Shown here piece after piece: positions 33,787-55,574 of a stretch of 64,000 nt of DNA. The DNA is taken from the NCBI GenBank assembly GCA_937124585.1, contig CAKZKT010000127.1, forward strand, positions 68,606 to 132,605. The letters run 5' to 3'. Numbering within the stretch: the first letter of the stretch is position 1; each line of letters begins with the position of its first letter. Origin of the DNA: an uncultured Anaerolineae bacterium (GTDB lineage: Bacteria > Chloroflexota > Anaerolineae > CG2-30-64-16). The notes under the pieces are model-generated. The model made no database searches. It saw only the letters and a list, made by a program, of their open reading frames with translations, and had not been told where the DNA came from. Made by a program: the position numbers and the translations under genes.

Positions 33787-33897
33787 GCGAGAATCGCCAC
33801 CGGACGGATCGGCCGCCCTCTCGTGCAGCCGATCCGTCTTCAACACGCCTGATGAAGCGATGGCGCGTCAGCACCTGATCGCTATGAAAGGAACTCT

Positions 33898-34935: not shown

Positions 34936-35012
34936 CCAAAGCAGACAGACGCGCCAGGACATCCGCGCGGGGACACGTGGACGCCGACCCCATTTTTATC
35001 AGGAGAAACGAT

Positions 35013-35213: not shown

Positions 35214-35321
35214 GCACGGCAACCCGAGCACAGCCGAACGGTGGATCTAGGACGGCCGGTCGAAAATCGTCGCCGTCAATCCGCGCGCCGACCTCCCGGA
35301 TACCGCGCCAGCCAGCGAACG

Positions 35322-35705
35322 CTATGTCGCCGATAACAGCCTTTCCATCAACCAGCGTTCTACCGTCTCCAGCAGCTCCGTGGAGCTGGCAGGCTTATTC
35401 AGAAAATCGTTGGCTCCTGCCGCGCGCGCGTCCTCCCGATCTTGATCTTGAGCGCTGGCAGTCAGCATGATGATCGGCAGATGCTGATAGCGCGGATCGG
35501 CGCGCAGTTGCCGCAACAGGCTCAGCCCATCCACTTCCGGCATAGCGAGATCGAGCAGCACCAGGTCCACAATACTCTCGGCCAAGCGCTGCAACGCTTC
35601 CTCGACGCTTTCAGCCGGGATCGGGGTGTGTTCGGCGCGGCGCAACATGACGCTGATCATTCGCCGAATCACGGCATTATCATCCACGACCAGTATCGTG
35701 GCCAT
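35322..35705 (-). CDS. Response regulator, single receiver (CheY-like) domain
   Basis: MATILVVDDNAVIRRMI...LLDLAMPEVDG...IIMLTA...K, with the phospho-acceptor Asp context. Confidence 0.85.
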   Translation of the reverse strand: MATILVVDDNAVIRRMISVMLRRAEHTPIPAESVEEALQRLAESIVDLVLLDLAMPEVDGLSLLRQLRADPRYQHLPIIMLTASAQDQDREDARAAGANDFLNKPASSTELLETVERWLMERLLSAT

Positions 35706-35884
35706 ATGTACTGTCCCCAGAGTGGCGTTGAAGTGCTGTCCCGCTCGGCTTCACACAAAACCCCATCTACATCGGTTGCATGGCCGGAGCACTGCCCCAG
35801 CTTACCACAGCTTGCTCCTGCGTCCAAGATGGTAACAATCGTGCATCTGGCCGTGCTGCGACCGGCCTGCATGTTCCCGCAGGC

Positions 35885-37474
35885 TCAGCGCGCCTCTGCG
35901 ACCTCGGCTGCGGGCAATGTGAAGCTGAAGGTGCTGCCGCTGCCGGGCCGGCTCTCCACAGCAGTGACACCCCCCAACCTGGTGACGATCCGGCGGACGA
36001 TGGACAGACCCAGCCCATGTCCTTTGAGATGCTTTCCCACCTGCGTGAACGGCTTGAAAAGCCGGGCCTGCTCATCAGGGGGCAATCCCTCGCCATTGTC
36101 TCGCACCCAAAACCGCACCATGCCATCGTCTTGAACTGTCGCCCCCAGTTCTACCTGCGGCGGCGTACCACCATACTTGATCGCGTTGCTGATGTAGTTG
36201 ACCCATATCTGCTCCACCCATGGTCCGTAGCCCCGGGCAGAGGGCCATGCCGACGGGGTGATGATTTCGGCGTCGTTGGCCCGGATCATTTCCTGCAGTT
36301 GTTGGAGTGCGCCGCCGACGACCACAGACATGTCGAGAGGAGTCGTGGCCACCTCTTGCTTGCGCGTTTGCGCCAACAACAACAGGGCGCCGACCAAATC
36401 CCGCAGCTTCTGGGCATGGCGGAGAATGGCGTTCAGATGATCCCTGATGTCAGGAGAAAACGTTTCGCCCGCCACCCTGTTGATGATCTGAGCTGTACCG
36501 AGAATGATGGTCAGGGAATTCTTCATGTCATGCGCCACCGTGTGGGCAAAGGCGTCGAGCTCCTCATTCTGCACCTGAAGTTCCGCCGTTTGCTGGCGCA
36601 GCCTCTCTGTGAGCACCTCCAATTCCAGGGCATGCTGCTGCAAGGCCCGATGCAGCCTGACCTCTTGGGTGATGTCGCGATCCAACCCCACCGTGCATGG
36701 CCGCCCATCAATTTCCACCGGTGTCGCCGCATACTCTATGATGTTTTCTTTGCCGTCAGGCCGGGTCCAGGAGATCAGCCCGCGGTAGGGGATATGACGA
36801 CGGCGCAGGCTCAAGTCGTCCAGCGCCGGAGTGATCGGTCCCACTTTTCTTTGTAACGTGCTCGTGTTCCCTATCCGAAGAAGCTCTTCCTTGGTGCGTC
36901 CTGTCATCTCGACATAGCGCTGATTGCAATCAATCAACCGCCGAGTATCATGCTCCAAATCCTCTTCATAGATGTTGATGCCCTCCGACACGTTGTCGAA
37001 AATAATGCGGAGCATCCGTTCCGTCGTCCGCAACTCTCGCTCGAGCCTTTTGCGATCGCTGATATCGCGGAAAACCGACACCGTGCCCACAATCGTCCCG
37101 GATGGATCACGCACAGGCGCAACGTTGCCGTTGATAGGAATTCGTGTCCCGTCGGGCCGAAGCAGCCAGTGGCGACTCTCGAAAGAAAATACAGTATCAG
37201 CCTCCATCACTTGTGCGGCCAGCCCCGACACCGAAACACTGCTCTCCTCTGCGCAGACATGGAGCACCTCGGTGAGCTCCCGTCCCTCCGCCGCTGCACA
37301 TTCCCAGCCAGTCAGGGCTTCAGCCTGCGCATTCATCCACAAGATGCGCCCCATGCTGTCGGTCAAAATCACCGAATCGTCCAGACTGGCCAGGGCCTGG
37401 GCCCAAAACGATTCCTGTCCGGCAAGCAGAATCTGGACATCGTCCGACATCGCCATCCTCCGTTGCCACATCAC
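35885..37474 (-). CDS. Sensor histidine kinase with two PAS domains
   Basis: Two PAS-like regions, an H-box (FAHTVAHDMKNSL), an N-box (NYISNAIKY) and G-boxes (GHGLGLSIV). Upstream of and co-oriented with the response regulator. Confidence 0.8.
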   Translation of the reverse strand: MMWQRRMAMSDDVQILLAGQESFWAQALASLDDSVILTDSMGRILWMNAQAEALTGWECAAAEGRELTEVLHVCAEESSVSVSGLAAQVMEADTVFSFESRHWLLRPDGTRIPINGNVAPVRDPSGTIVGTVSVFRDISDRKRLERELRTTERMLRIIFDNVSEGINIYEEDLEHDTRRLIDCNQRYVEMTGRTKEELLRIGNTSTLQRKVGPITPALDDLSLRRRHIPYRGLISWTRPDGKENIIEYAATPVEIDGRPCTVGLDRDITQEVRLHRALQQHALELEVLTERLRQQTAELQVQNEELDAFAHTVAHDMKNSLTIILGTAQIINRVAGETFSPDIRDHLNAILRHAQKLRDLVGALLLLAQTRKQEVATTPLDMSVVVGGALQQLQEMIRANDAEIITPSAWPSARGYGPWVEQIWVNYISNAIKYGGTPPQVELGATVQDDGMVRFWVRDNGEGLPPDEQARLFKPFTQVGKHLKGHGLGLSIVRRIVTRLGGVTAVESRPGSGSTFSFTLPAAEVAEAR

Positions 37475-37644
37475 TCCAACAGATGTCTTGCGGATTCACC
37501 ACAGGGCAATGCCTCTCTCCATCGCCTGCGGTTACATATATTATAAAGACTGCGTCACAGGCAACGGGTTACGGCCACGGACAAATGACATCGGCGCGCG
37601 AACAGAGCGGTGTTCCACATGGGCATCTGTCCTGGAATAGCACG

Positions 37645-38712
37645 CTATACATCGTCCGGCCGCACCTCCCGCCCCTCCCGCGCGGAGATGTGGGCGGCCA
37701 GGCTGAACGCCAACACCTTGCGGCCGGTCAGGCCGTCCAGCACCGGCCGGCCGCCGCGCGTCAGCACCTCGATCAGGTGGCGGGTGCAATCAATGAAGCT
37801 GTCGTGCCACTCGCCCCGCTCCACCGGCACGGATTTCGTGGTCCCATCCCGGAACAGCATCAACGGCGGCAGGTCCACGGTGCGCGCGGTGCAGCGGTTG
37901 ACGAAGAGGATCCCCCGGTCGCCGATCACCTCCACGCGGTCGTCGTCCGCGTAGTAGATCGAGTCCATGACCAGGTTGGGCGTGTGCGCGAAATCGAGCA
38001 CGCCGTAGCGACGCGGGGCCTTGAACTGGAACATGATCGTCGCCGGCGCGTCCACGTAGACCCCGGGGTAGACGCGGCTGCGATCGAGCCAGGCGTAGAC
38101 CCGGGCCACGTCGCCCATCAGGTAGTGCGCCAAGGAGAAGAGGTGGTAGCCGTGGTCGAACACCAGCGGCCCGCCGCCCGATTGCTTGGGCCGAAAGCGC
38201 CATAGCCAGGCGCGCAGCGGCACCTTCCAGGCGGTCTTGCTCTTGCCCGTGCTCACGTGCAGGCGGATCATCTGTGGCTCGCCGATCTCGCCCGCGTCGA
38301 GCATCTGCTTCGCCAGCACATGGGGCGGGTAGAAGACGAAGTTTTCGTAGACGCGCAGGGTAACCCCGGCCTCTTTCGCGGCCGCGATCATGCGATCGGC
38401 CTCTGCCACGGTCAGCGCCATGGGCTTTTGCACCGAGACGTGCTTGCCCGCTCGACAGGCCGCGATGGTCATCTCGGCGTGCAGGTGATGCGGCACCAGC
38501 AGCTCGACCAGGTCAACCTCGTTGTCCTCCAGCACCTGGCGATAATCCGTGTAGACCTTCGCCACGCCCCATGCCCTGGCCCGGGCTTCGGCTAGCTTCC
38601 GCTCCCGGTCGCAGGTCGCGACGATGCGGGCGTCCTCGCGGCCGCGATAGCCCAGCTCGTGCAGGTCGGCAATCCGACCGCAGCCGACGATAGCAACGCG
38701 AATAGGGGGCAT
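37645..38712 (-). CDS. Gfo/Idh/MocA-family NAD(P)-dependent oxidoreductase
   Basis: Starts MPPIRVAIVGCGRIADLHELGY with an AGAGGA RBS 5 nt upstream. The 32 upstream codons of the ORF-track entry are translation of the palindromic repeat (MPGTLQDAWHV...). Confidence 0.8.
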   Translation of the reverse strand: MPPIRVAIVGCGRIADLHELGYRGREDARIVATCDRERKLAEARARAWGVAKVYTDYRQVLEDNEVDLVELLVPHHLHAEMTIAACRAGKHVSVQKPMALTVAEADRMIAAAKEAGVTLRVYENFVFYPPHVLAKQMLDAGEIGEPQMIRLHVSTGKSKTAWKVPLRAWLWRFRPKQSGGGPLVFDHGYHLFSLAHYLMGDVARVYAWLDRSRVYPGVYVDAPATIMFQFKAPRRYGVLDFAHTPNLVMDSIYYADDDRVEVIGDRGILFVNRCTARTVDLPPLMLFRDGTTKSVPVERGEWHDSFIDCTRHLIEVLTRGGRPVLDGLTGRKVLAFSLAAHISAREGREVRPDDV

Positions 38713-38729
38713 AACGATCCTCTTTTTAT

Positions 38730-38865
38730 ACGTGCCAGGCATCTTGCAGAGTGCCTGGCACGTGTGAGCCGGTTCGACGTGCCAGGCATCTTGCAGAGTG
38801 CCTGGCACGTGTGAGCCGGTTCGACGTGCCAGGCATCTTGCAGAATGCCTGGCACGTGAGCACTC
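38730..38865. repeat. Tandem array (about 2.9 x 47 bp) of palindromic repeat ACGTGCCAGGCA-TCTTGCAGAG-TGCCTGGCACGT plus 13-nt spacer GTGAGCCGGTTCG
   Basis: Read directly. Units start at 38731, 38778 and 38825. The arms are perfect 12-bp inverted repeats. The array lies between the GPH transporter stop and the Gfo/Idh/MocA start. Confidence 0.85.
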
Positions 38866-38866
38866 G

Positions 38867-40216
38867 CTACCGCATCCCGATCTTCTCCATCACCGCCCGA
38901 TGGCTGGCGCGGGTGATCGGATACCGGATCAACAAGGGCAAGCAGGCCAGGATGAGCAGCGCAGGCGCCGGCCCGAAGAAGAGCCGGATGCCCAGCAAGG
39001 TCGGGGTGGTCTGGGCCACGTTGGGCACGTACCTGAACGCGGCCAGGATCCAGCCGCTGGCTGCGATGGCCAACGCCTCCGCGATCTTGGTGGCCAGCCC
39101 CCACACCCCGAAGTACATCCCGCTGCGATACTCGCCGGTGCTCAGCCGGTCGTAGTCCACGACATCGGGCACCATGGCCCACGGGAAGACCCACTGCGCG
39201 GAGAAGCCGATCCCCGCCAGGGCCGCGATGACGTAGACCCACGGCGTCGGCCCGGCCGGCAAGAGAAAAGTAGCCGCCACCGCCAGCCCGCCGATGGCCA
39301 TGCCCAGCGCGTAGGCCGGGCCCTTGTCCCAGCGCTGCGCCAGCCAGCGCCACGGGAAGAGCGCCAGCACGACGAAGACCAGCATCAGGCCCATCACCAC
39401 GGGCACCTGCGCCTCCATGCCGAGCTGGTAGGTGAGGAAATAGGCCATGAGGGTTTTGATGAGGGCGAAGGCGGCGGTGAGGACGAAATAGGCGGCGATC
39501 AGCCGGACGAAGGGCCGGTTGGTGAAGGTGGCCCGGATCGCCTGCCAAGGCGGCAGCTCGGCCTTGCTGGCGGCCACCGCCGGCCGCTCGCGCAGTCCTG
39601 CGGCCGAGATCAGCAGCGCGGCCACGGCCAGCGCGCCGTAGATCACTCCCACCGCGGCGTAGCCTGCTGCTTTGGTCGCGAACATGGCGACCAACGCCGG
39701 GGTCAGCGCCGCGCCCAGCAAGTACGCCGGCACTGCCAGCGTCATGCGGGCCGCGGTCAGGCCGGCGCGCTCGTCGTAGTCGTCGGTCAGCTCGCCGGTC
39801 AGCGCGTAGTAGGGCACGTTGGTGAAGGTCCACAGGGTGTCGAACAGGATGAAAGTCAACGCCACCCAGGCGAAGACCGCAGCCGCCGACAGCCCGGCCG
39901 GGACGCGCCACAGCAGCGCGATGGCAATCCCCAGCGGCAGCGCGCCGGCGATCATGAAGGTACGGCGCTTGCCCAGGCGGGTGGCCGGCGCGCGGTCGGC
40001 CAGCCAGCCGGCCACCGGGTCGTTGACCGCATCCCACAGCTTGCCGATCAGGAGCGCGCTGCCCACCAGGGCCGGGGCCAGCAACGCCGCGTCGGTGTAG
40101 AAGATCATCAGGAAGAACTGCACCGCCGAGTTCACGGTCGCGTTGCCCACGTCGCCGATGCCGTAGAAGAGGCGGGTCTTGAGGGACAGTCTGGTCATCT
40201 GTGGGTGGGTTGACAT
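38867..40216 (-). CDS. MFS transporter, glycoside-pentoside-hexuronide (GPH):cation symporter family
   Basis: 449 aa with 12 predicted TM segments. The N-terminus (KTRLFYGIGDVGNA...) is typical of MelB/GPH. Confidence 0.75.
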   Translation of the reverse strand: MSTHPQMTRLSLKTRLFYGIGDVGNATVNSAVQFFLMIFYTDAALLAPALVGSALLIGKLWDAVNDPVAGWLADRAPATRLGKRRTFMIAGALPLGIAIALLWRVPAGLSAAAVFAWVALTFILFDTLWTFTNVPYYALTGELTDDYDERAGLTAARMTLAVPAYLLGAALTPALVAMFATKAAGYAAVGVIYGALAVAALLISAAGLRERPAVAASKAELPPWQAIRATFTNRPFVRLIAAYFVLTAAFALIKTLMAYFLTYQLGMEAQVPVVMGLMLVFVVLALFPWRWLAQRWDKGPAYALGMAIGGLAVAATFLLPAGPTPWVYVIAALAGIGFSAQWVFPWAMVPDVVDYDRLSTGEYRSGMYFGVWGLATKIAEALAIAASGWILAAFRYVPNVAQTTPTLLGIRLFFGPAPALLILACLPLLIRYPITRASHRAVMEKIGMR

Positions 40217-41895
40217 GGCAGAATTATACTTCCTTCGTTGGCCTGAGTCACAATCCGCCGATAGATATCCAGAAAGCCCCCGGCAACCCGCGGCGGCCGT
40301 GGCTGCCAGGCGGCCAGGCGCCGGCCGAGCTCCTCGTCGGAGATCAGCAGCTGCAGGCGCCGGGCCGGGATGTCAATCTCGATCAGATCGCCGTCGCGCA
40401 CTGCGGCGATGGGGCCGCCGACAAACGCTTCCGGCGCCACATGGCCGACGCAAGGCCCCCGCGTCGCGCCGGAGAAACGGCCATCGGTGATCATGGCCAC
40501 CGATTCGGCCAGCCCCATGCCGACCAGCATTGCCGCCGGGATCGAAAGCTCGCGCATCCCCGGGCCGCCGGCCGGGCCCTCATTGCGGATCACCAGCACG
40601 TCGCCCGGCCGGATCGCGGCGGCGTGCAGGGAGTCGCGCACGGCTTCCTCGCACTCGAAGACGCGCGCCGGGCCGACATGGCGCAGCATGGCCGGCGCCA
40701 CGCCGCTCTGCTTGACCACCGCGCCGGCCGGGGCCAAATTGCCCCGCAGGACGACGATCCCGCCCTCGGCCGCCAGGGGATCGTGCAGGGGGCGCAACAC
40801 TTCGGGGCGCTGCACACGGCCGGCAGCCGCCCGGGCCGCGATCGTCTCGCCCGTGACCGTCGGCGCGTCGGCATGAAGCAGGGGCAGCAGCACGTTCAGC
40901 ACGGCCGGGATGCCGCCGGCAGCGTGCAGGTCCACCACGGTGAAGGCCGCGGCGGGGCGAAACTTGCCGATCAGCGGCGTGGTGCGGCCCAGCGCGTCGA
41001 AATCATCCAGCGACACGGCCACGTCGGCCGCCCGGGCAATGGCCGGGATGTGCAGCGCGGCGTTGGTGGAGCCTCCGATTGCCTGCACGACGCGGATGGC
41101 GTTCTCGAAGCTGGGCCGGGACAGGAAGGCGCGCGCCGTCAACGGGCCAGGCACGCCGCCAGTGGCTGATGCATGGCGAGCGACCATTTCGACGATGCGC
41201 CGGCCGCTGGCTTCGCACAGCGCCCGACGCTCCGGCGCCTCCGCGGGCAGGGTGGCACAGCCGGGCAGCGTCAGCCCCAGCGCCTCGGTCACACAGGCCA
41301 TGGTATTGGCGGTGCCCATGAAGCTGCATGCGCCGGGGCCGGGACACGCAGCCGCCTCGAGCTCGCGCAACTCCGCCTCGGTCATGCGGCCCGCCTCCAC
41401 GCGGCCCATCCCCTCCTTCACGTCGCTGAGGATCACCTCCCGGTCGCCGAGGCGACCCGGCCGCATCGGCCCGCCGGTGACGAAGAGGGTCGGCAGGTCA
41501 AGCCACGCGGCCGCGATCAACATGCCCGGGATGATCTTGTCGCAGCTGGCCAGCATCACCAGGCCGTCAAAGCGATGGCCGCGCGCCATCAGCTCCACCG
41601 AGGCCGCGATGACATCGCGCAGGGGCAGGATCGCGTGCATGCCCGGCCCCTGGGCGATCCCGTCGCACGGCGCGACCGTGTTGAACTCGGCCGGCATGCC
41701 GCCTGCGGCCCGCACGCCGGCCTTGGCCCACCCCGCCAGCTCCCGCAGGTGCAGGTGGCCGGGACAGGTCTCGCTCCACGAGTTGGCGATGCCGATCAGC
41801 GGCTTGCCGAAGTCATCGTCGCCGAAGCCCATGGGCCGAAAAAGGGCGCGCGGGTAGGCACCGTGAAGGCCCTCGAAGAGAGTATTGGTTACCAT
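40195..41895 (-). CDS. IlvD/EDD-family dehydratase (dihydroxy-acid or sugar-acid dehydratase)
   Basis: [2Fe-2S]/Mg motifs (CDGIAQG, ASCDKIIPG, CPGPGACSFMGTANTMA). Start is probably MVTNTLFEG at 41895, 2 nt after the upstream stop; the alternative start at 41940 overlaps. Confidence 0.8.
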   Translation of the reverse strand: MVTNTLFEGLHGAYPRALFRPMGFGDDDFGKPLIGIANSWSETCPGHLHLRELAGWAKAGVRAAGGMPAEFNTVAPCDGIAQGPGMHAILPLRDVIAASVELMARGHRFDGLVMLASCDKIIPGMLIAAAWLDLPTLFVTGGPMRPGRLGDREVILSDVKEGMGRVEAGRMTEAELRELEAAACPGPGACSFMGTANTMACVTEALGLTLPGCATLPAEAPERRALCEASGRRIVEMVARHASATGGVPGPLTARAFLSRPSFENAIRVVQAIGGSTNAALHIPAIARAADVAVSLDDFDALGRTTPLIGKFRPAAAFTVVDLHAAGGIPAVLNVLLPLLHADAPTVTGETIAARAAAGRVQRPEVLRPLHDPLAAEGGIVVLRGNLAPAGAVVKQSGVAPAMLRHVGPARVFECEEAVRDSLHAAAIRPGDVLVIRNEGPAGGPGMRELSIPAAMLVGMGLAESVAMITDGRFSGATRGPCVGHVAPEAFVGGPIAAVRDGDLIEIDIPARRLQLLISDEELGRRLAAWQPRPPRVAGGFLDIYRRIVTQANEGSIILPCQPTHR

Positions 41896-41897
41896 GG

Positions 41898-43811
41898 CTA
41901 CAATCCGATCCGGTGTCGCAGTGCCTGTACGTCTTCGCACCAGTTGCCCACGTTCCAGCGGCCGAAGACGCCCATCCCGCCCAGCGGATCGGGGCCGAAG
42001 TAGACCGGGACGTGGATCAGGCTCAAGCCGGGGTAGGCATAGGCCCGGTCGAGCGCTGCCAGGAGCGACGGGATGGCATCGCCTCCCGGCAGGGCCTGCA
42101 CCCCGGCCACCGCCTGGGCCCAGGCCACGTAGTCCACCGCGACGCGATCCGCGGTGGCGAACTCGTGGCCGTACTGCGCCTCTTGCAGGCCGGTAATCGC
42201 GGCCATCCGCCGGTTGTCCAGCAGCAGAATGCAGCCGCGAGCACCATGCTGCACCCCGTCAATCAAGATCTGCGGGTTCATGGTAAACGAGCCGTCCCCG
42301 CTGATCGCCAGTCCGTAGAACGGCGGCTCGGCCGCGGCCGTCGCCAGCAGCGCGGAGACCGCGAAGCCCATGTAGCTGGCCCCCGTCTCGGTGATCGTAC
42401 GGCCGGGGCGGTCGTCCTCGACGACCTGAAAGCCGTTGGCCTGCACATCGCCCGCATCGAAGAAGGTCACGACATCGTGGGCGCGTGCCCAATCGGTCGC
42501 CGCCTTGATCGCTGCGGGCTGCGTGAGCACATCCCGGCCCCAACCGGCGTCCCACAGGGTCGGACGGTCGTAGTGCTCGGCCTTAAACGCCTCCCAGGCG
42601 CGCTTCTGAGCCGCGCACTCGGCCAGCCAGGGAGATGGCCCGCCAGCGGCCTTGGGGACGCGCAGCCGCAGCCCGTCGTTCAACCGCCGCAGCGTGGCCT
42701 TTGCATCCCCGATCAGCGCCAGCGTCTTGCCGTAGTGCAGCGCCGCGTCGGGATCGGGATTGATGTTGATCACGTGCTTGACCCGCGGATAGCCCGTGCG
42801 CGAGCTGTCGGATTGACAGACCGCGCGCGTCCCGATGGCCACCAGCAGGTCGGCGTGCTCCATGGCATAGTTGCCGCAGAGCGAGCCTTTCGATCCGCCG
42901 ACCGTCATGTTGCGGGGGTGGGTGTAGGGCACGACGCCGGTAGCAATGGGGGTGTGCACCAGCACGGCATCGGTCAGCTCCAGGAACTCCGCCAGCTCAG
43001 GGCCGGCATCCCTCGCGCCGCCGCCGATCTTGACGACAACCCGCTCGGCTGCCAGCAGCAGTTCGGCAGCACGGGCATAGGCGTCGTCGTCCGCGACCGC
43101 GCCAACGTGCGGTACCGGCCCCTCGGGCAGCTCGTTCAGGTTGAAGCCGGGCATGGCTGCGGCCTGGGTGTTCATGGGCAGGAGGAGAAAGAAAGGCCCG
43201 GCGCGATACGGATGATCCACCGTGACCAACCCGCGACGGAGCGCAGTGGCAAGAGCCATTGGCGTATGCAGGCTGTAGCCCCGACCGGCCGTCTCACACA
43301 GCCGGAGGAACAGTGCCTGCTCATGCTTGGGGATCTGCTGCATGTTCGGCCCCTCGTCCTCGGTGGTCTCATCCCCGAACAGGTACCAGACACCGATCCC
43401 GTCAGAGGCGGGCGCCAGCGACGCAGCCAGCGCCTGCAGCGCGCCCGGGCCGATGGATGTGACCACGGCACTCTGCTGGCCCGTCACCCAGCGCAGGGCG
43501 GTCGCAGCGTGAGACGCTTCGATCTCGTTGCGGACGTTCAGCACGCGCAGCAGCCCTGCCTCGGCGTAGATGCGCAGCACCTCGCCGATCTCGGTGGAGC
43601 CGTGGCCGAAAACGGCAAAAAAGATGCGCACGCCCTGGCGCAGCAGACCTAACACCAACGCCTCGGACAGAGTCGTGTCAATGCTGGGAGGCAGCGCGCC
43701 AGCCGCCAACGCGACGTCCAGCCCACCCGCGGCCGCGATGGCTCTGGCGCGGGCCGCGCGCGCTGCTGCGAGGAGATCCTGGCTGGCAACGAAGCGATTC
43801 ACGGATACCAC
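41898..43811 (-). CDS. Thiamine-pyrophosphate enzyme, IolD-like (3D-(3,5/4)-trihydroxycyclohexane-1,2-dione acylhydrolase family; acetolactate-synthase superfamily)
   Basis: 637 aa. TPP-binding GDGSF...N region (ISGDGSFTMNPQILIDGVQHGARGCILLLDNRRMAAITGLQ) and an N-terminal FGHG...SIGPGA region laid out like IolD. Confidence 0.65.
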   Translation of the reverse strand: MVSVNRFVASQDLLAAARAARARAIAAAGGLDVALAAGALPPSIDTTLSEALVLGLLRQGVRIFFAVFGHGSTEIGEVLRIYAEAGLLRVLNVRNEIEASHAATALRWVTGQQSAVVTSIGPGALQALAASLAPASDGIGVWYLFGDETTEDEGPNMQQIPKHEQALFLRLCETAGRGYSLHTPMALATALRRGLVTVDHPYRAGPFFLLLPMNTQAAAMPGFNLNELPEGPVPHVGAVADDDAYARAAELLLAAERVVVKIGGGARDAGPELAEFLELTDAVLVHTPIATGVVPYTHPRNMTVGGSKGSLCGNYAMEHADLLVAIGTRAVCQSDSSRTGYPRVKHVININPDPDAALHYGKTLALIGDAKATLRRLNDGLRLRVPKAAGGPSPWLAECAAQKRAWEAFKAEHYDRPTLWDAGWGRDVLTQPAAIKAATDWARAHDVVTFFDAGDVQANGFQVVEDDRPGRTITETGASYMGFAVSALLATAAAEPPFYGLAISGDGSFTMNPQILIDGVQHGARGCILLLDNRRMAAITGLQEAQYGHEFATADRVAVDYVAWAQAVAGVQALPGGDAIPSLLAALDRAYAYPGLSLIHVPVYFGPDPLGGMGVFGRWNVGNWCEDVQALRHRIGL

Positions 43812-43834
43812 CTTTCACCTTTCACGTTGCAAAG

Positions 43835-43898
43835 TGTCTGGCACGTGCGAAATGAGCCGGATTCACGTGCCAGGCATCTCGCAGAGTGCCTGGCACGT
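43835..43898. repeat. About 1.5 copies of the palindromic repeat (ACGTGCCAGGCA-TCTCGCAGAG-TGCCTGGCACGT) in the divergent IolD-like/tetR intergenic region
   Basis: Full copy at 43865-43898 with perfect 12-bp arms. A half-site (TGTCTGGCACGTG) lies upstream with spacer CGAAATGAGCCGGATTCA. Confidence 0.8.
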
Positions 43899-44030
43899 GT
43901 GGCAGATTTCGCGATTCATCGAGAAGATACAACCAGTTTGATGCCTTGTCAAATGCGATTTGACAAACGCGCCGATCGGTGAGACAATCAGAAAAACCGA
44001 CCGGTCGGTATAATTCCACATGGAGGCACC

Positions 44031-44684
44031 ATGAGCCATCAGGCGCGGGGAGACGAGACTCAAGCACGCATCCTGGCCGCAGCGGCCGAATGTTTCACCC
44101 GCGCCGGCTACGACGCCACCGGTGTGGCTGAGATCTGTGCCCGGGCTGGGGTAAGCAAAGGCGCGTTCTATCACCACTTCCCGACCAAGCAGGCCCTGTT
44201 CCTGGCCCTGCTCGACCGGTGGCTGGCCGGATTGGACAGTTCGTTGCAGGCCACGCGGCGGGCCGGGATGACCATGCCGCAACGCCTGGAGGAGCTGGCA
44301 GAAACGGTGGAACAGGTGCTGGAAGCGGCCAGGGGCCAGGTGCCCATGTTCCTGGAGTTCTGGCGTCAAGCCGCCAAAGAGCCCCAGGTGTGGCAGGCCT
44401 CCATCGAGCCCTACCAGCGTTTTCGCTCCGCATTCGTGGCGATGGTGCAAGAGGGCATCGCCGAAGGCTCGCTGCGCGCGGTGGATGCGAGGCTGGCAGC
44501 CCTGGTGCTGGTCTCGCTGGGAGTGGGATTGGTGCTGCAAGGCGTGCTCGATCCGGCCGCAGCAGCATGGCCCGGCGCGGCCGGCCAGGCCGTTCGTTTG
44601 CTCCTGGATGGCCTGGCAGCCCCGGATCGTTTATCCCCGTGCCAGGCACCCTCTCAGGGGCCTGGCACGTACACACACGATTGA
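44031..44684 (+). CDS. TetR/AcrR-family transcriptional regulator
   Basis: GGAGG RBS. N-terminal HTH (ILAAAAECFTRAGYDATGVAEICARAGVSKGAFYHHFPTKQALF). The last ~15 codons read into the repeat. Confidence 0.85.
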   Translation: MSHQARGDETQARILAAAAECFTRAGYDATGVAEICARAGVSKGAFYHHFPTKQALFLALLDRWLAGLDSSLQATRRAGMTMPQRLEELAETVEQVLEAARGQVPMFLEFWRQAAKEPQVWQASIEPYQRFRSAFVAMVQEGIAEGSLRAVDARLAALVLVSLGVGLVLQGVLDPAAAAWPGAAGQAVRLLLDGLAAPDRLSPCQAPSQGPGTYTHD

Positions 44685-44740
44685 TCCACGTGCCAGGCAC
44701 CCTCTCAGGTGCCTGGCACGTAAATGATGCCTGGCACGTT
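44638..44740. repeat. About 2.5 tandem copies of a variant palindromic repeat (CGTGCCAGGC-ACCCTCTCAGGN-GCCTGGCACGT), period about 51 bp, at the tetR 3' end / upstream of 44800 gene
   Basis: Copies at 44638-44671 and 44689-44721, plus a partial copy (ATGCCTGGCACGTT) at 44722-44740. Arms are the same as at the other loci but the loop sequence differs. Confidence 0.8.
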
Positions 44741-44799
44741 TGGCCGCGACATTCTGCGACGCCCAGGTCTTATCCATCTTTGGTTTTGAGAGGTTCACC

Positions 44800-46590
44800 A
44801 TGAAAGTATTGCTCACGGGCGCGTTCGGGAATGTCGGCATCAGCACCCTCGACGAATTGCTGCGGCAGGGCCATACTGTACGCTGCTTTGATCTGCGCAC
44901 CGCGGTCAACGAGCGGACAGCCCGCCGCTATGCGGGCCGCATCGAGGTCGTATGGGGCGACCTGCGGAATCCGGCCGATGTGGCCGCGGCCGTAGCAGGG
45001 GTCGAGGTCGTCCTCCACGTCGCGTTCATCATCCCCAAGATGTCGCATACCGGCATCGAATCGGAGCTGCGGCCCGACTGGGCCGCGGCGGTCAATGTCG
45101 GCGGCACGCGCCACCTGATCCAGGCCATGCAGGCGCAGCCGATCCCGCCGAAGCTGATCTTCACCTCCTCCCTGCATGTCTACGGTCGCACCCAGCATCT
45201 GCCACCTCCGCGCACCGCCGACGAACCGGTGCATCCCATCGAACATTATGCGCGGCACAAACTACAATGCGAGGAGATGATCCGCACGTCGGGCCTGACA
45301 TGGGCCATCTTGCGGCTAGCGGCCACGCTTCCCATCGCGCTCAAGCTTGACCCCGGCATGTTCGATGTGCCACTAAACAACCGCATGGAATATGTCCACA
45401 CGAAAGACGTGGGCCTGGCGCTGGCCAACGCGGTCAGCAGTGATGCGATATGGGGCAAGACGCTGCTGATCGGCGGCGGCCCGCGCTGTCAGTACACCTA
45501 CGGCGAAATCATGGCGCGCATCATGGCTGCGCTGGGGCTGGACATGCTGCCGGCCGAAGCCTTCGCCACGACGCCCTTCGCCACCGACTGGCTGGACACG
45601 GCGGAGAGCCAGCGCCTGCTCCGCTACCAGACGCGCACCCTCGACGACTATCTGGCCGACATGACGCGGCTGATGGGCCTGCGCCTGCCGTTCATGCGGC
45701 TGTTCAAGCCGCTGATCCGGCGGTCGCTGCTGGCGCATTCACCGCATTGGACACGACACACCGCCCGACAACGCAAAGAGGGGTGGGAAAACCAGACCGC
45801 CCTGGTGACCGGCGCATCCAGCGGGATCGGCGCGGCCGCAGCCCGACAGCTGGCGCGGCTGGGCGTCCGCGTGCTCCTGGTGGCCCGTCGCGGCGAGCGG
45901 CTGGAACTGCTGGCAGACGAGATCCGGCGAGACGGCGGCAGCGCGCACGCCATCACTGCCGACCTGGCCAACGAGGCCGAACGCGCCCGGGTCCTGGAGC
46001 AGGCCCATGCGCTGGCCGGCGGCGTGGACATCCTGGTGAACAGCGCCGGATTCGGCTGGTATGGCTACGGCAGCGAGATGCCGTGGGAAGTCGCGCGTGC
46101 CATGATCCAGACGAACATGACCGCGCTGGCCCACATGACGCTGCTGGTGCTGCGCGATATGAAGGCCCGCGGCCGGGGGCACATCGTCAACATCAGCTCC
46201 ATCGCCGGCAGCCTGCCCGAACAGGGGACCGCGTTGTACAGCGCCACCAAGGCATTCGTGGACAACTTCACCACCGCCCTGCATCGTGAACTGCGCGGGA
46301 CGGCGATTCACGTCAGCCTGATCCGGCCCGGGCCGGTGCAGACGGAGTTCTTCAGCCGGGCGGCCGACCAGCCGGGCGGTTTCCGCGTGCCCGGAGAGCG
46401 GTTCGCGATCACGCCGGAGCGGGTCGCGGCGCGCGTGGTCGCCGTCCTGCGTCGGCCACGACGCGTGGTGCACATCCCGGGCTGGTGGCGCATCGCGCCG
46501 TGGATCGAGCCCGCGCTGGGCTGGCTGATCGATCGCCTGGGACCGGCGTTGCTGCGTCGCCAGAGGCGGGGCGAAACACTCGCCTCGTAG
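44800..46590 (+). CDS. Fusion protein: NAD-dependent epimerase/dehydratase (extended SDR) domain + classical SDR domain
   Basis: Start MKVLLTGAFGNVGISTL with a GAGAGG RBS (Rossmann GxxGxxG). A second Rossmann at about residue 330 (ALVTGASSGIGAAAA) carries NSAG and YSATK motifs. The AT-rich promoter-like region lies just after the repeats. Confidence 0.75.
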   Translation: MKVLLTGAFGNVGISTLDELLRQGHTVRCFDLRTAVNERTARRYAGRIEVVWGDLRNPADVAAAVAGVEVVLHVAFIIPKMSHTGIESELRPDWAAAVNVGGTRHLIQAMQAQPIPPKLIFTSSLHVYGRTQHLPPPRTADEPVHPIEHYARHKLQCEEMIRTSGLTWAILRLAATLPIALKLDPGMFDVPLNNRMEYVHTKDVGLALANAVSSDAIWGKTLLIGGGPRCQYTYGEIMARIMAALGLDMLPAEAFATTPFATDWLDTAESQRLLRYQTRTLDDYLADMTRLMGLRLPFMRLFKPLIRRSLLAHSPHWTRHTARQRKEGWENQTALVTGASSGIGAAAARQLARLGVRVLLVARRGERLELLADEIRRDGGSAHAITADLANEAERARVLEQAHALAGGVDILVNSAGFGWYGYGSEMPWEVARAMIQTNMTALAHMTLLVLRDMKARGRGHIVNISSIAGSLPEQGTALYSATKAFVDNFTTALHRELRGTAIHVSLIRPGPVQTEFFSRAADQPGGFRVPGERFAITPERVAARVVAVLRRPRRVVHIPGWWRIAPWIEPALGWLIDRLGPALLRRQRRGETLAS

Positions 46591-47580: not shown

Positions 47581-47678
47581 GACGACTCCCTCGACGGAAA
47601 AATAACGGCCTGCGGCTGGCTGGCGCTTCCTAACCGCCATTATCATCGTCAAAGGAGATCGTCCGACAGTAATCGCGC

Positions 47679-55555: not shown

Positions 55556-55574
55556 GACAGGTATCCTCTCGATA

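What the first reader, a model, noticed from the sequence alone, without database searches (positions are those of the whole stretch)
37645..44684. TetR-associated cluster combining an IolD-like TPP enzyme, an IlvD/EDD dehydratase, a GPH sugar symporter and a Gfo/Idh/MocA dehydrogenase: possible uncharacterised sugar/cyclitol acid catabolic route
Four co-oriented minus-strand genes are tightly packed. The dehydratase start lies 2 nt after the IolD-like stop, and the transporter start overlaps the dehydratase end. A TetR regulator is divergently transcribed. An IolD-type TPP C-C hydrolase is known from inositol catabolism, and IlvD/EDD dehydratases act on aldonic acids such as arabonate, xylonate and gluconate. 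Together with an NAD(P) dehydrogenase and a GPH transporter, this combination does not correspond to a textbook pathway. It could be an oxidative (non-phosphorylative) sugar-acid or cyclitol pathway.
Basis: inference. Interest (0 to 1): 0.6.

Follow-up and report, generated by a model that had tools for sequence, protein, structure and literature searches.

The report
Uncharacterised IolD-like sugar/cyclitol catabolic operon
This is a real, TetR-controlled operon built around a widespread but unstudied thiamine-dependent enzyme (routinely mislabelled IolD) and its partner dehydrogenase, and it most likely breaks down an imported sugar or cyclitol by a route not yet described.

Summary
The genes are there. 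TPP enzyme, IlvD and GPH transporter are translationally coupled. The Gfo/Idh/MocA gene follows after a 154-nt hairpin-repeat spacer. TetR is divergent, across a perfect operator-like palindrome.

The TPP enzyme is neither IolD nor acetolactate synthase. It belongs to a distinct sister family of IolD (25-29% identity) that is 65-80% conserved across at least 10 phyla, almost all uncultured.

Across 55 informative genomes, this enzyme and an orthologous Gfo dehydrogenase form a core. The core is followed either by an IlvD-family dehydratase or by a split transketolase plus a DhuI-like isomerase, never both (p=3e-7). Each option brings its own aldehyde dehydrogenase type. No kinase or aldolase is conserved. 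No paper describing this was found.

My best reading: Gfo and the TPP enzyme convert an imported neutral cyclitol or sugar into a polyhydroxy aldehyde-acid, which IlvD then dehydrates.

Two caveats. The window's IlvD is a bona fide DHAD-type protein. A close relative keeps only IlvD, under the same promoter, so IlvD may double as the housekeeping enzyme. The substrate is unknown.

Cultured Labrenzia, Sinorhizobium, Phaeobacter and Salipiger strains carry orthologous clusters and make it testable.

The parts
41898..43811 (-). IolD-like TPP-dependent enzyme (634-637 aa). Core enzyme of the module and member of an uncharacterised sister family of IolD.
   Evidence: All three TPP_enzyme Pfam domains are present. 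The best NCBIfam hit is IolD at 165.9 bits, against a cut-off of 715; ALS scores 115.9 and Xsc about 72-77. Orthologues are 68-81% identical in metagenomes and 62-74% identical in at least 80 GTDB species. Cultured alphaproteobacteria have 54-56% orthologues; the next relatives are true iolD at 25-29%. No solved structure is close.
40195..41895 (-). DHAD-type IlvD/EDD dehydratase (566 aa), translationally coupled to the TPP gene by a 2-nt gap.
   Evidence: Pfam ILVD_EDD_N and ILVD_EDD_C. TIGR00110 ilvD scores 658.6, above the 618.15 cut-off; L-arabinonate dehydratase scores 465.7, below its 882 cut-off. The best PDB hits are DHADs 6nte and 6ovt. Orthologues 63-69% identical follow the TPP gene in 8 GTDB loci and 3 metagenome loci. 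The start is confirmed by alignment to L092. The SCDK, PGPGAC and TDGRFSG motifs can be read in the translation; their role as Fe-S/Mg/catalytic motifs is from memory.
38867..40216 (-). GPH-family (MFS_2) cation symporter. Its start overlaps the IlvD stop.
   Evidence: MFS_2 scores 310 bits. TIGR00792 gph scores 259.7, above the 231.35 cut-off; YagG, UidB and MelB equivalogs are all far below their cut-offs. Orthologues 56-64% identical occur in both transketolase-type and IlvD-type clusters. The junction was read.
38730..38858 (.). Structured spacer between GPH and Gfo: 2.7 tandem copies of a 47-nt unit, each carrying a GTGCCAGGCA-N10-TGCCTGGCAC hairpin.
   Evidence: Tandem repeat with 98% matches. 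The exact hairpin pattern has 5 hits in the 64 kb against 0 expected. As RNA the spacer folds at -103.7 kcal/mol, z = -10.5.
37645..38712 (-). Gfo/Idh/MocA NAD(P)-dependent dehydrogenase (355 aa). The conserved partner of the TPP enzyme.
   Evidence: Pfam GFO_IDH_MocA plus C-terminal domains. The best NCBIfam hit is IolG at 124 bits (cut-off 355), then levoglucosan dehydrogenase at 111. The best full-length PDB hit is 3ezy, followed by the scyllo-inositol/L-glucose dehydrogenase 5ya8. Orthologues 61-70% identical lie in both cluster types, and 41-53% orthologues lie in other phyla, sometimes overlapping the TPP gene by 8 nt.
44031..44684 (+). Divergent TetR-family regulator (217 aa). Local to this lineage; other lineages use IclR or GntR.
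   Evidence: TetR_N and TetR_C_6 domains. No homologue lies next to the TPP gene in any other locus. IclR is present in 23 of 55 loci.
43946..43966 (.). Operator-like perfect palindrome TTGTCAAAT-GCG-ATTTGACAA. It spans the two divergent -35 boxes.
   Evidence: Inverted repeat with 9-nt arms, 100% complementary. Both arms contain a TTGACA that the promoter scan used as a -35 box, one on each strand. Binding by TetR is inferred.
43924..43952 (-). Promoter-like site for the TPP-IlvD-GPH(-Gfo) operon (TTGACA, 17 nt, TATCTT).
   Evidence: 10 of 12 consensus positions matched. The same segment (28 of 34 nt identical) lies directly upstream of IlvD in relative L092.
43960..43988 (+). Promoter-like site for tetR (TTGACA, 17 nt, TG-GACAAT).
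   Evidence: 10 of 12 consensus positions matched. Consensus match only.
43835..43899 (.). Hairpin-repeat copies in the TPP-tetR intergenic region.
44636..44740 (.). Hairpin-repeat copies at and just after the 3' end of tetR.

Best explanation
This is an inducible catabolic operon for an imported neutral carbohydrate. A cyclitol (an inositol isomer or derivative) is the leading candidate, but the substrate is not established.

Proposed steps in the window:
1. TetR represses two divergent promoters through the 43946-43966 palindrome until an inducer binds (inferred).
2. The GPH symporter imports the substrate (inferred).
3. The Gfo/Idh/MocA enzyme oxidises a ring hydroxyl to a carbonyl (inferred from family).
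4. The IolD-like TPP enzyme cleaves the C-C bond next to that carbonyl. The product is an open-chain polyhydroxy omega-oxo-carboxylate, i.e. a uronate-like aldehyde-acid of general form R-CHOH-CHOH-CHO. This is inferred from IolD being its nearest relative and from what the downstream enzymes need.
5. The DHAD-type IlvD dehydrates the 2,3-dihydroxy-acid end, either directly or after Gfo oxidises the aldehyde. The resulting 2-keto-3-deoxy compound enters general keto-deoxy-acid metabolism.

What is shown:
- Gfo and the TPP enzyme are the conserved core.
- The step after them is modular. Other lineages use one of the following: an SSADH-like aldehyde dehydrogenase plus an arabinonate-type IlvD; an enolase-superfamily dehydratase; or a DhuI-like aldose-ketose isomerase plus split transketolase plus an IolA-type (MMSDH) aldehyde dehydrogenase.
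- No kinase and no aldolase is conserved.

It is not a branched-chain amino-acid operon.
For: Gene identities and couplings.

Operator and promoters.

Family size and conservation:
- All 120 best hits are at least 68% identical.
- 477 confirmed GTDB loci span Chloroflexota, Planctomycetota, Thermodesulfobacteriota/delta, Nitrospirota, Gemmatimonadota, Verrucomicrobiota, Hydrogenedentota and others.

Neighbourhoods in 55 loci with enough flank:
- Gfo 34, GPH 29, IclR 23.
- Transketolase plus DhuI-like isomerase in 23-24 loci, IlvD in 20, both in 0. Fisher p = 2.9e-7.

Same core in both cluster types:
- Gfo orthologues are 61-70% identical and GPH orthologues 56-64% identical in both types.
- TPP proteins from IlvD-type and transketolase-type clusters interleave: mean 68% identity, maximum 83%, and 6 of 9 IlvD-type proteins have a transketolase-type nearest neighbour.

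Aldehyde dehydrogenases split cleanly:
- MMSDH-type occurs only with transketolase.
- SSADH-like occurs only with arabinonate-type IlvD.

Three unrelated dehydratase lineages have been recruited: DHAD-type, PRK06131/arabinonate-type and MR_MLE.

Other supporting points:
- The isomerase matches DhuI (PDB 4u8e, gbs1892) at E = 6e-46. DhuI acts on a deoxy-uronate and is the non-homologous counterpart of KduI, whose family includes IolB (PMC6837340, PMC12838403).
- The nearest characterised relatives are IolD for the TPP enzyme, IolG-type inositol dehydrogenases for Gfo and IolA/MMSDH for the aldehyde dehydrogenase.
- Cultured alphaproteobacteria have IclR-Gfo-TPP-ALDH-IlvD next to a sugar ABC transporter.
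- A LarA-like 2-hydroxyacid isomerase lies beside the TPP gene in L081.
Against: - No enzyme here has been assayed, and the substrate is unknown.
- The GPH family and the AcbH-like binding protein of Labrenzia point to sugars or glycosides rather than cyclitols.
- Sulfatases flank the cluster in two delta-type loci, suggesting a sulfated sugar there.
- IolE (needed to make IolD's dione), IolC and IolJ are not conserved. The TPP enzyme would therefore need chemistry different from IolD's, or a second oxidation would be required.
- The window's IlvD passes the ilvD equivalog cut-off.
- A close relative (L092) keeps IlvD alone under the same promoter, without TPP, GPH or Gfo.
- Two other loci of the same IlvD clade (L094, L095) lack the TPP gene.
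- One locus (L103) has transketolase, MMSDH and a DHAD-type IlvD together.
- If the product were 5-deoxyglucuronate, IlvD could not act on it directly.
Confidence: 0.4

Rival explanations
1. Oxidative, non-phosphorylative aldose route in which the order is Gfo, then IlvD, then the TPP enzyme. Gfo oxidises an aldose at C1 to the aldonate. IlvD makes the 2-keto-3-deoxy-aldonate. The TPP enzyme acts as a 2-keto-acid decarboxylase in place of the Dahms aldolase or Weimberg dehydratase, and an aldehyde dehydrogenase finishes the route. This is closest to the first reader's sugar-acid idea.
For: - IlvD, MR_MLE and arabinonate-type dehydratases are classic aldonate dehydratases.
- The TPP-ALDH-IlvD trio is conserved in proteobacteria and planctomycetes.
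- The GPH transporter's best named relative is YagG. From memory, yagG lies in the E. coli yagEFGH xylonate cluster.
- The Labrenzia binding protein resembles the monosaccharide binder AcbH.
- All members of this superfamily can decarboxylate 2-keto acids (general knowledge).
Against: - Transketolase-type clusters use the same Gfo (61-70% identical) and the same TPP enzyme (up to 83% identical) but contain no dehydratase at all. A dehydratase therefore cannot sit between Gfo and TPP there.
- Decarboxylating a 2-keto-3-deoxy-aldonate gives a 2-deoxy-aldose, which is neither an isomerase/transketolase substrate nor a central metabolite.
- The nearest relative of the TPP enzyme is a C-C hydrolase, not a decarboxylase.
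Confidence: 0.2
2. In this window IlvD is simply the organism's housekeeping dihydroxy-acid dehydratase, and a three-gene module (TPP, GPH, Gfo) has been assembled around it. The functional catabolic unit would then be only transporter + Gfo + TPP, as in the minimal loci.
For: - IlvD passes the TIGR00110 equivalog cut-off, and DHADs are its best solved relatives.
- Relative L092 (89% nucleotide identity) has promoter-IlvD-HK with no TPP, GPH or Gfo, and only half of the operator.
- L094 and L095 (68% identical IlvD) lack the TPP gene.
- Minimal TPP+Gfo loci exist: L005, L033, L052, L071, L086.
Against: - TPP-IlvD adjacency with 5-20 nt spacing is conserved in 8 GTDB and 3 metagenome Chloroflexota loci that are only 64-69% identical in IlvD.
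- IlvD occupies exactly the slot taken by the transketolase/isomerase genes in sister clusters.
- Two other dehydratase lineages were recruited independently elsewhere.
- A housekeeping ilvD placed under a TetR/IclR sugar-type repressor would be odd.
- DHADs at 44-57% identity (73 loci) are never beside this TPP family.
Confidence: 0.2
3. A sulfo-sugar or sulfated-sugar pathway, with variants analogous to sulfo-TK and sulfo-ED. The anionic group would replace phosphate, which would explain the absence of kinases. The TPP enzyme would act like Xsc or a sulfo-keto-acid decarboxylase.
For: - There is no kinase in any variant.
- Transketolase plus an RpiB-family isomerase, versus an IlvD-family dehydratase, mirror the sulfo-TK and sulfo-ED pathways (PMC12890257).
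- Sulfatases sit next to Gfo-TPP-IlvD in L084 and L087.
- From memory, the E. coli sulfoquinovose transporter YihO is a GPH-family protein.
Against: - Xsc models score only 72-77 bits.
- No sulfoquinovosidase, sulfite exporter or sulfolactaldehyde/sulfoacetaldehyde enzymes are conserved.
- The Gfo protein has no SqgA-like hit among its 60 best PDB matches.
- The 2026 review of sulfoquinovose pathways lists no such TPP enzyme.
- The FGE gene near the Labrenzia cluster is separated from it by an IS remnant.
Confidence: 0.06
4. A biosynthetic, ilv-like carboligation route. The TPP enzyme condenses two carbonyl compounds (like ALS or Gcl), Gfo reduces the product (a KARI-like role) and IlvD dehydrates it to a 2-keto acid.
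For: - The order TPP enzyme, reductase, DHAD parallels ilvB-ilvC-ilvD, and IlvD is DHAD-type.
- Other Gfo + ALS-like TPP + DHAD triads exist: L107, and the L110 type.
- The Salipiger cluster resembles gcl-glxR-hyi.
Against: - Importers of four different families (GPH, ABC, TRAP, TTT) are linked to the cluster.
- So are catabolic-type repressors, sulfatases, aldehyde dehydrogenases and a transketolase alternative.
- The window has no ilvN, ilvC or leu genes.
- ALS models score far below their cut-offs.
Confidence: 0.05

Closest known systems
Canonical myo-inositol catabolism (iolG-iolE-iolD-iolB-iolC-iolJ-iolA, Bacillus subtilis type)
   Same: The nearest characterised relatives of three conserved enzymes are IolD (TPP enzyme), IolG (Gfo) and IolA/MMSDH (the aldehyde dehydrogenase of the transketolase variant). 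The DhuI-like isomerase is the non-homologous counterpart of the KduI/IolB family. The logic is the same: dehydrogenase, then TPP C-C cleavage, then an aldehyde-acid.
   Different: The TPP enzyme is only 25-29% identical to IolD and scores 166 bits against a 715-bit cut-off. Gfo scores 124 against 355. IolE, IolC and IolJ are absent. The downstream chemistry is a dehydratase or a transketolase instead of kinase plus aldolase. The transporter is GPH or CUT1 ABC rather than IolT/IolF type.
Non-phosphorylative oxidative sugar pathways (Weimberg/Dahms; E. coli yagEFGH xylonate cluster)
   Same: A sugar dehydrogenase plus an IlvD/EDD- or enolase-family acid-sugar dehydratase plus a semialdehyde dehydrogenase, with no kinase. 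E. coli yagEFGH pairs a GPH transporter with an IlvD/EDD dehydratase.
   Different: Those pathways have no TPP enzyme. Here there is no keto-deoxy-acid aldolase or second dehydratase. The window's dehydratase is DHAD-type, not xylonate/arabinonate-type. The transketolase variant has no counterpart.
Sulfo-TK sulfoglycolysis (SqvD, SqwGH transketolase, SqwI isomerase)
   Same: Kinase-free use of a split transketolase plus an aldose-ketose isomerase to shorten an anionic sugar by C2 units. It is an alternative to a dehydratase (sulfo-ED) route for the same substrate.
   Different: No sulfoquinovosidase, sulfoacetaldehyde reductase or exporter genes. The extra Gfo and IolD-like TPP core has no role in sulfo-TK. 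Xsc-type models score poorly.
DHU metabolism (DhuI/DhuD, KduI/KduD) of unsaturated uronates
   Same: The isomerase of the transketolase variant is a clear DhuI homologue (E = 6e-46 to gbs1892). Direct dehydration of a hexuronate by IlvD would give DHU.
   Different: No DhuD/KduD reductase, KdgK or KdgA is linked. The window itself has no DhuI-like gene.
Branched-chain amino-acid biosynthesis (ilvBN-ilvC-ilvD)
   Same: IlvD passes the ilvD equivalog model. A TPP enzyme of the ALS superfamily lies immediately upstream.
   Different: The TPP enzyme is not ALS (116 bits against a 538-bit cut-off). There is no ilvN, ilvC or leu gene. The genes are co-transcribed with a sugar symporter and a Gfo dehydrogenase under a TetR-type repressor.

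Membership tests
IolD (3D-(3,5/4)-trihydroxycyclohexane-1,2-dione acylhydrolase, TIGR04377) | Score at or above the curated equivalog cut-off | tested here: not met
   165.9 bits against a cut-off of 715. Only 25-29% identity to annotated iolD genes.
IolD (3D-(3,5/4)-trihydroxycyclohexane-1,2-dione acylhydrolase, TIGR04377) | Genomic context with iolE (which makes the dione substrate), iolB, iolC and iolJ | tested here: not met
   None is conserved among 55 neighbourhoods. An AP_endonuc_2 TIM barrel occurs in only 2-3 loci.
IolD (3D-(3,5/4)-trihydroxycyclohexane-1,2-dione acylhydrolase, TIGR04377) | Hydrolytic cleavage of a cyclic 1,2-dione to an omega-oxo acid | not testable with these tools
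   Requires an enzyme assay.
TPP-dependent POX/ALS superfamily | Three-domain architecture, catalytic Glu, and the GDG...N(N) TPP/Mg motif | tested here: met
   The TPP_enzyme_N, M and C domains are present. E93, G502-D503-G504 and D529-N530 are invariant in 35 orthologues. Fold matches to POX, HACL and AHAS have TM-scores of 0.65-0.70.
Biosynthetic acetolactate synthase large subunit (TIGR00118) | Score at or above the cut-off, and an adjacent ilvN/ilvC | tested here: not met
   115.9 bits against 538.35. No ilvN or ilvC in the window.
Dihydroxy-acid dehydratase IlvD (TIGR00110 equivalog) | Score at or above the curated cut-off | tested here: met
   658.6 bits against 618.15. PRK00911 scores 674.1 against 644. 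The best PDB relatives are DHADs 6nte and 6ovt.
Dihydroxy-acid dehydratase IlvD (TIGR00110 equivalog) | Role in Val/Ile/Leu biosynthesis (ilv/leu context or sole copy in the genome) | tested here: inconclusive
   There is no ilv/leu context here. However, relative L092 keeps IlvD alone. Whether a second ilvD exists in the genome could not be checked.
Sugar-acid dehydratases of the IlvD/EDD family (L-arabinonate, D-xylonate, Edd) | Score at or above the respective cut-offs | tested here: not met
   L-arabinonate dehydratase 465.7 against 882; YjhG/YagF 233.8 against 808; Edd 260.4 against 708. The IlvD of other lineages is PRK06131/arabinonate-like.
GPH (glycoside-pentoside-hexuronide:cation symporter, TIGR00792) | Score at or above the cut-off over the full length | tested here: met
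   259.7 bits against 231.35, covering residues 15-446. No equivalog (MelB, UidB, YagG) reaches its cut-off.
Inositol 2-dehydrogenase IolG (TIGR04380) | Score at or above the equivalog cut-off | tested here: not met
   124.1 bits against 355. It is still the top-scoring named family.
Sulfo-TK / sulfo-ED sulfoglycolysis | Linked sulfoquinovosidase, sulfoacetaldehyde/sulfolactaldehyde enzymes, or sulfonate/sulfite exporters | tested here: not met
   None appear among the conserved neighbours. No SqgA-like hit for Gfo.
TetR-family repressor with divergent operator | TetR_N helix-turn-helix domain plus a palindromic operator in the divergent promoter region | tested here: met
   TetR_N scores 72.5 bits. 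A perfect palindrome with 9-nt arms overlaps both -35 boxes. Binding itself was not tested.

The most novel reading that the evidence does not exclude
The Gfo + IolD-like TPP pair is the entry point of a previously unknown, kinase-free and oxygen-independent catabolic pathway that is widespread in uncultured anaerobes and marine/soil bacteria.

In this reading the TPP enzyme ring-opens an inosose or keto-sugar directly, without an IolE-type dehydratase, by phosphoketolase-like cleavage, dehydration and hydrolysis. The product is a (deoxy)uronate.

That product is then processed either by a dehydratase route ending in 2-oxoglutarate or pyruvate precursors, or by a transketolase route acting on non-phosphorylated acid sugars and ending in xylulose-5-phosphate plus an IolA substrate.

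If so, much of what metagenomics currently counts as 'iolD / inositol catabolism' would be this different enzyme.
Probability: 0.25. Interest if true: 0.8.

Novelty: new variant of a known kind. Interest (0 to 1): 0.62.

Why it matters
- The TPP enzyme family is large. All 120 best metagenome hits are at least 68% identical, and at least 477 GTDB species loci in more than 10 phyla carry it. It is unusually conserved, yet it has no curated family, no structure and no paper.
- JGI labels it IolD, so inositol-catabolism calls in Chloroflexota, Planctomycetota, SAR202 and others are probably wrong or incomplete.
- The comparative pattern is a natural experiment: one core with interchangeable dehydratase or transketolase back-ends, each with its own aldehyde dehydrogenase and no kinase. 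It constrains the chemistry and points to a new non-phosphorylative route for an abundant environmental carbohydrate.
- Cultured carriers exist (Labrenzia sp. THAF187b, Sinorhizobium terangae and S. mexicanum, Phaeobacter piscinae S26, Salipiger sp. CCB-MM3), so the question can be tested directly.

Tried and rejected
- **Sulfoquinovose hypothesis.** I checked reviews and the SqgA paper. No TPP or IolD-like step is known, Gfo is not SqgA-like, and no sulfoquinovose marker genes are linked.
- **Literature.** Eight searches looked for this gene combination, for alternative inositol routes and for TPP-dependent keto-deoxy-acid decarboxylases. Nothing relevant was found. PDB 8rph turned out to be the carboligase JanthE.
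- **Structure.** The AlphaFold model (pLDDT 74, pTM 0.79) and a Foldseek search of the PDB returned only generic POX, HACL and AHAS neighbours at 18-22% identity, which does not discriminate. The afdb50 library was unavailable.
- **Rfam.** No riboswitch or other RNA family between 35 and 47 kb.
- **Sulfatase link in Labrenzia.** The FGE gene is separated from the cluster by an IS remnant, so it was not counted.
- **TetR, the epimerase/SDR fusion (44740-46590) and PhyH (46615-47640) as cluster members.** No homologue lies beside the TPP gene elsewhere, so they are treated as local neighbours.
- **HpcH/HpaI aldolase (30675-31538) and RraA-like gene (31564-32310) as missing aldolases.** They are not conserved near the cluster, and they persist in L092, which lacks the module.
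- **Assigning one exact substrate.** I tried to fit 5-deoxyglucuronate, hexuronate, a C5 deoxy-uronate, pentoses from 2-keto-hexonates, DHU and others by requiring that every variant be self-contained. Several fit some variants and none fits all, so no single substrate is claimed.

Full report
**1. Observation**

The window is high-GC (about 0.66) with many shadow ORFs. Third-position GC (0.84-0.94) picks out the real frames.

On the minus strand lie four genes:
- a three-domain TPP enzyme, 41898-43811;
- an IlvD/EDD dehydratase, 40195-41895;
- a GPH/MFS_2 symporter, 38867-40216;
- a Gfo/Idh/MocA oxidoreductase, 37645-38712.

A TetR regulator, 44031-44684, is divergent on the plus strand.

The TPP stop TAG is followed by 'cc' and then the IlvD ATG. 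The GPH start overlaps the IlvD stop, by 22 nt from the ATG with a GAAGGA ribosome-binding site or by 4 nt in an ATGA arrangement.

There is one correction. The Gfo ORF quoted as starting at 38808 runs through intergenic repeats. The real start is 38712, behind AAAAAGAGGA. Gfo is therefore separated from GPH by 154 nt. That spacer holds 2.7 copies of a 47-nt unit, each with a 10-bp GC-rich hairpin, and it folds at -103.7 kcal/mol (z = -10.5).

The 219-nt TPP-tetR intergenic region carries a perfect palindrome, TTGTCAAAT-GCG-ATTTGACAA. Its two arms each hold a TTGACA -35 box of two divergent promoter-like sites. This is a textbook TetR operator layout, although binding is inferred.

No Rfam family matches between 35 and 47 kb.

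**2. What the proteins are**

*TPP enzyme.* Its best curated family is IolD, but at 165.9 bits against a cut-off of 715. ALS scores 116 and Xsc about 72-77. No solved structure is close, either by sequence (at most 87 bits) or by fold (18-22% identity).

*IlvD.* It lies on the bona fide DHAD side of its family. It passes TIGR00110 (658.6 > 618.15) and PRK00911. The arabinonate, xylonate and Edd models are far below their cut-offs. Its best solved relatives are DHADs.

*GPH.* It passes the family model, but no specific transporter model.

*Gfo.* Its top named relatives are inositol dehydrogenases: IolG in NCBIfam, and 3ezy and 5ya8 in the PDB. Sugar 3-dehydrogenases follow. All are far below cut-off.

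*Rest of the window.* It holds no ilvB/N/C or leu genes. It encodes a PAS histidine kinase, a beta-eliminating lyase, a CN-hydrolase, an RraA-like protein and an HpcH aldolase on one side. On the other side are an epimerase/SDR fusion, PhyH, MurJ and cell-envelope genes. Further away are a 2-oxoacid dehydrogenase complex, GlcD/F-like proteins and an ABC sugar system.

**3. The TPP enzyme defines a large, unstudied family**

The 120 best metagenome hits are all 68-81% identical and about 630 aa long. JGI names many of them IolD; NCBI only says 'thiamine pyrophosphate-binding protein'.

The best 80 are 62-74% identical. They come from Chloroflexota (Anaerolineae, Dehalococcoidia, SAR202), Planctomycetota, Thermodesulfobacteriota/delta, Nitrospirota, Gemmatimonadota, Verrucomicrobiota, Hydrogenedentota, Binatia, Actinomycetes, Gammaproteobacteria and Bacteroidota. 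All are MAGs.

In annotated plasmids and chromids, seven records from cultured alphaproteobacteria carry 54-56% orthologues. The next best hits are genuine iolD genes at only 25-29%. So 'IolD-like' is right as the nearest relative and wrong as membership.

**4. Neighbourhood analysis**

I clustered all ORFs of the 80 loci and annotated the recurrent clusters. Among 55 loci with enough flanking sequence, the counts are:

| Neighbour | Loci |
|---|---|
| Gfo | 34 |
| GPH | 29 |
| IclR | 23 |
| Aldehyde dehydrogenase | 23 |
| Split transketolase (N and C subunits) plus RpiB/LacAB-family isomerase | 23-24 |
| IlvD-family dehydratase | 20 |
| Transketolase and IlvD together | 0 |

The exclusivity gives Fisher p = 2.9e-7.

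The isomerase is a clear homologue of DhuI (PDB 4u8e, gbs1892; E = 6e-46). [quoted passage not shown] It is the non-homologous functional twin of KduI, whose family also contains IolB (PMC6837340, PMC12838403).

Typical gene orders are:
- IclR > TPP > TKn > TKc > DhuI-like > GPH > Gfo (± MMSDH);
- IclR > TPP > IlvD > GPH > Gfo, which is the window's type with TetR in place of IclR;
- (Gfo >) TPP > ALDH > IlvD.

**5. Three observations that tie the variants together**

First, the window's Gfo and GPH have orthologues in both transketolase-type and IlvD-type clusters, at 61-70% and 56-64% identity respectively. TPP proteins of the two types also interleave. Mean identity between types is 68% (maximum 83%), which is higher than within the transketolase type. 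Six of nine IlvD-type proteins have a transketolase-type nearest neighbour. The substrate and the Gfo and TPP reactions are therefore the same, and only the following steps differ.

Second, the aldehyde dehydrogenases split without exception. An MMSDH/IolA-type enzyme (TIGR01722, 561 bits > 448) occurs only with transketolase. An SSADH-like enzyme occurs only with the arabinonate-type IlvD.

Third, dehydratases of three unrelated origins have been recruited next to the TPP gene:
- DHAD-type, in the window and 8 Anaerolineae-type loci;
- PRK06131/arabinonate-type, in planctomycetes, delta-type bacteria and alphaproteobacteria;
- enolase-superfamily gluconate/galactonate-like, in L002 and L033.

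A nickel-pincer (LarA-like) 2-hydroxyacid isomerase is the neighbour in L081-L083. No kinase, aldolase or IolE-type dehydratase is conserved.

**6. Cultured carriers**

- Labrenzia sp. THAF187b and Sinorhizobium terangae have a CUT1 sugar ABC transporter divergent from IclR-Gfo-TPP-ALDH-IlvD.
- Phaeobacter piscinae S26 has IclR, a Zn-ADH, Mo-hydroxylase subunits, a TTT transporter, TPP, ALDH, IlvD and PntAB.
- Salipiger sp. CCB-MM3 has IclR, TPP, a HIBADH-like enzyme, a GlcG-like protein, a TIM-barrel isomerase, a TRAP transporter, ALDH and IlvD.
- Two delta-type loci have GntR, one or two sulfatases, Gfo, TPP and IlvD, with Gfo and TPP overlapping by 8 nt.
- One Chloroflexota locus has only Gfo, IclR, an ABC transporter and TPP.

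The feeder dehydrogenase and the transporter thus vary more than the TPP enzyme and its downstream partners.

**7. Mechanistic inference**

The enzyme following the TPP step is one of three kinds:
- an aldose-ketose isomerase feeding a transketolase;
- an aldehyde dehydrogenase feeding a 2,3-dihydroxy-acid dehydratase;
- such a dehydratase acting directly.

The simplest common substrate is an alpha,beta-dihydroxy aldehyde, R-CHOH-CHOH-CHO. Three points suggest it also carries a carboxylate, that is, a uronate-like aldehyde-acid: the DhuI precedent, the 'semialdehyde' dehydrogenase types and the LarA-like neighbour. This is exactly the kind of product the IolD reaction makes from a cyclic dione.

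Together with the IolG-like, IolA-like and IolB-analogue partners, this makes an inositol-like route the most coherent reading: a cyclitol or cyclic keto-sugar is oxidised by Gfo and opened by the TPP enzyme.

In the window, the DHAD-type IlvD would then make a 2-keto-3-deoxy product. This would be DHU-like if the product is a fully hydroxylated uronate, or a keto-deoxy-aldarate if Gfo first oxidises the aldehyde.

Every chemical step here is inferred. I could not find one substrate that makes all variants self-contained. GPH, the AcbH-like binding protein and the sulfatases lean towards sugars rather than cyclitols.

**8. A caveat specific to this window**

A metagenome scan with IlvD shows that DHAD-type proteins at 44-57% identity (73 loci) are never next to this TPP family. 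One exception of a different kind is L103, where transketolase, MMSDH and an IlvD occur together.

The window's clade (at least 63% identity) is mixed:
- L093, L096 and L097 have the TPP gene upstream;
- L098 has a different TPP enzyme;
- L092, L094 and L095 have none.

L092 is a close relative: 89% nucleotide identity in IlvD, and the same downstream order of histidine kinase, CN-hydrolase and RraA-like gene. In L092 the promoter segment that precedes the TPP gene in the window sits 31 nt before IlvD. Only half of the operator remains, and GPH, the hairpin spacer and Gfo are missing.

Two indels therefore separate the relatives, and IlvD survives alone. This means IlvD has value independent of the module, most simply as the housekeeping DHAD. 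I keep this as a serious rival, or as a dual-role scenario.

Against a purely accidental association:
- the TPP-IlvD coupling is conserved in diverged Chloroflexota;
- IlvD occupies the slot of the transketolase genes in sister clusters;
- other dehydratase lineages were recruited independently elsewhere.

**9. Comparison with known systems and novelty**

The cluster fails the membership tests for IolD/iol, ALS/ilv, the sugar-acid IlvD/EDD equivalogs, IolG and sulfoglycolysis. It passes only the generic family tests (TPP superfamily, GPH, Gfo, TetR) and the ilvD equivalog.

Eight literature searches, plus the naming in NCBIfam (June 2026) and PGAP, show no characterisation.

I rate it a new variant of a known kind: a catabolic gene cluster built from known superfamilies, but with an unassigned core enzyme family and an undescribed modular pathway.

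Interest is moderate to high because of the family's breadth, its systematic mis-annotation and its testability in cultured strains.

Noticed in passing
L092 (FWPU01016170.1) 1-7856, compared with window 31587-43956: A close relative (IlvD 89% nucleotide identity, same downstream gene order) lacks the TPP, GPH and Gfo genes. The promoter segment that precedes the TPP gene in the window lies 31 nt before IlvD there, with only one operator half-site. Two clean indels (about 1.9 kb and 2.8 kb) distinguish the two genomes.
   Followed up: yes
window 38729-38858, 43835-43899, 44636-44740 (also one 1-mismatch half-site at 29356): A REP-like hairpin, CACGTGCCAGGCA-N10-TGCCTGGCACGTG. All 5 exact copies in the 64 kb, and 15 of the 18 half-site matches found with up to 2 mismatches, lie in the three intergenic spaces of this locus, at the borders of the genes that are missing in relative L092. 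It may mark insertion or recombination junctions, or act as an mRNA stabiliser or attenuator.
   Followed up: partly
L107 3064-7629; L098 2418-7684; L110, L111, L113, L115, L117, L118: Other 'Gfo + TPP enzyme + DHAD-type IlvD' groupings use unrelated, more ALS-like TPP lineages (22-29% identical to the window's). This suggests the dehydrogenase/TPP/dehydratase combination is a recurrent design.
   Followed up: partly
L103 2-5583: This locus reads TKn, TKc, MMSDH, a 136-aa ORF, then a DHAD-type IlvD (57% identical to the window's). It is the only locus seen where transketolase and an IlvD occur together, and so an exception to the otherwise strict exclusivity.
   Followed up: partly
L094 334-7977: An IlvD of the window's clade (68% identical) is followed by a XylA/RhaI-like isomerase, a bona fide xylulokinase (579 bits), an aldo-keto reductase and an aldehyde dehydrogenase, with no TPP gene upstream. 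It hints at a pentulose-producing context for this dehydratase clade.
   Followed up: partly
window 52800-56663 (-): A GH127-like glycosidase, a xylose-isomerase-like TIM barrel and a HIBADH-family dehydrogenase lie in a row. The last two families also sit between the TPP gene and the TRAP transporter in the Salipiger cluster (a gcl-hyi-glxR-like look). A link to the operon was not tested.
   Followed up: no
L041, L054, L055, L059, L071 (complete pair); L053, L056, L065 (second GPH plus a shorter CrtI-like ORF), just downstream of the cluster: A CrtI/phytoene-desaturase-like FAD oxidoreductase plus a second GPH transporter (44-48% identical to the window's) recur on the opposite strand beside the cluster in several Chloroflexota. 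Their function is unknown.
   Followed up: no
window 44740-46590 (+): A 616-aa fusion of an NAD-dependent epimerase/3beta-HSD-like domain and a classical SDR domain lies directly downstream of tetR, followed by a convergent PhyH dioxygenase (46615-47640). Neither is conserved near the TPP family, although a PhyH gene also lies near the cluster in L052.
   Followed up: partly
L081-L083 3418-4701: A nickel-pincer-cofactor (LarA-like) isomerase of group 22 (508 bits, above the 400 cut-off) lies immediately downstream of the TPP gene in an Anaerolineales lineage, with the DhuI-like gene divergent upstream. This fits a 2-hydroxy-acid intermediate.
   Followed up: partly
window 16268-27096: A block encoding E2, E1-alpha and E1-beta of a 2-oxoacid/acetoin-type dehydrogenase complex, two SDRs, an amidohydrolase, a GcvT-like protein and a lipoate-protein ligase. 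It appears unrelated to the finding.
   Followed up: no
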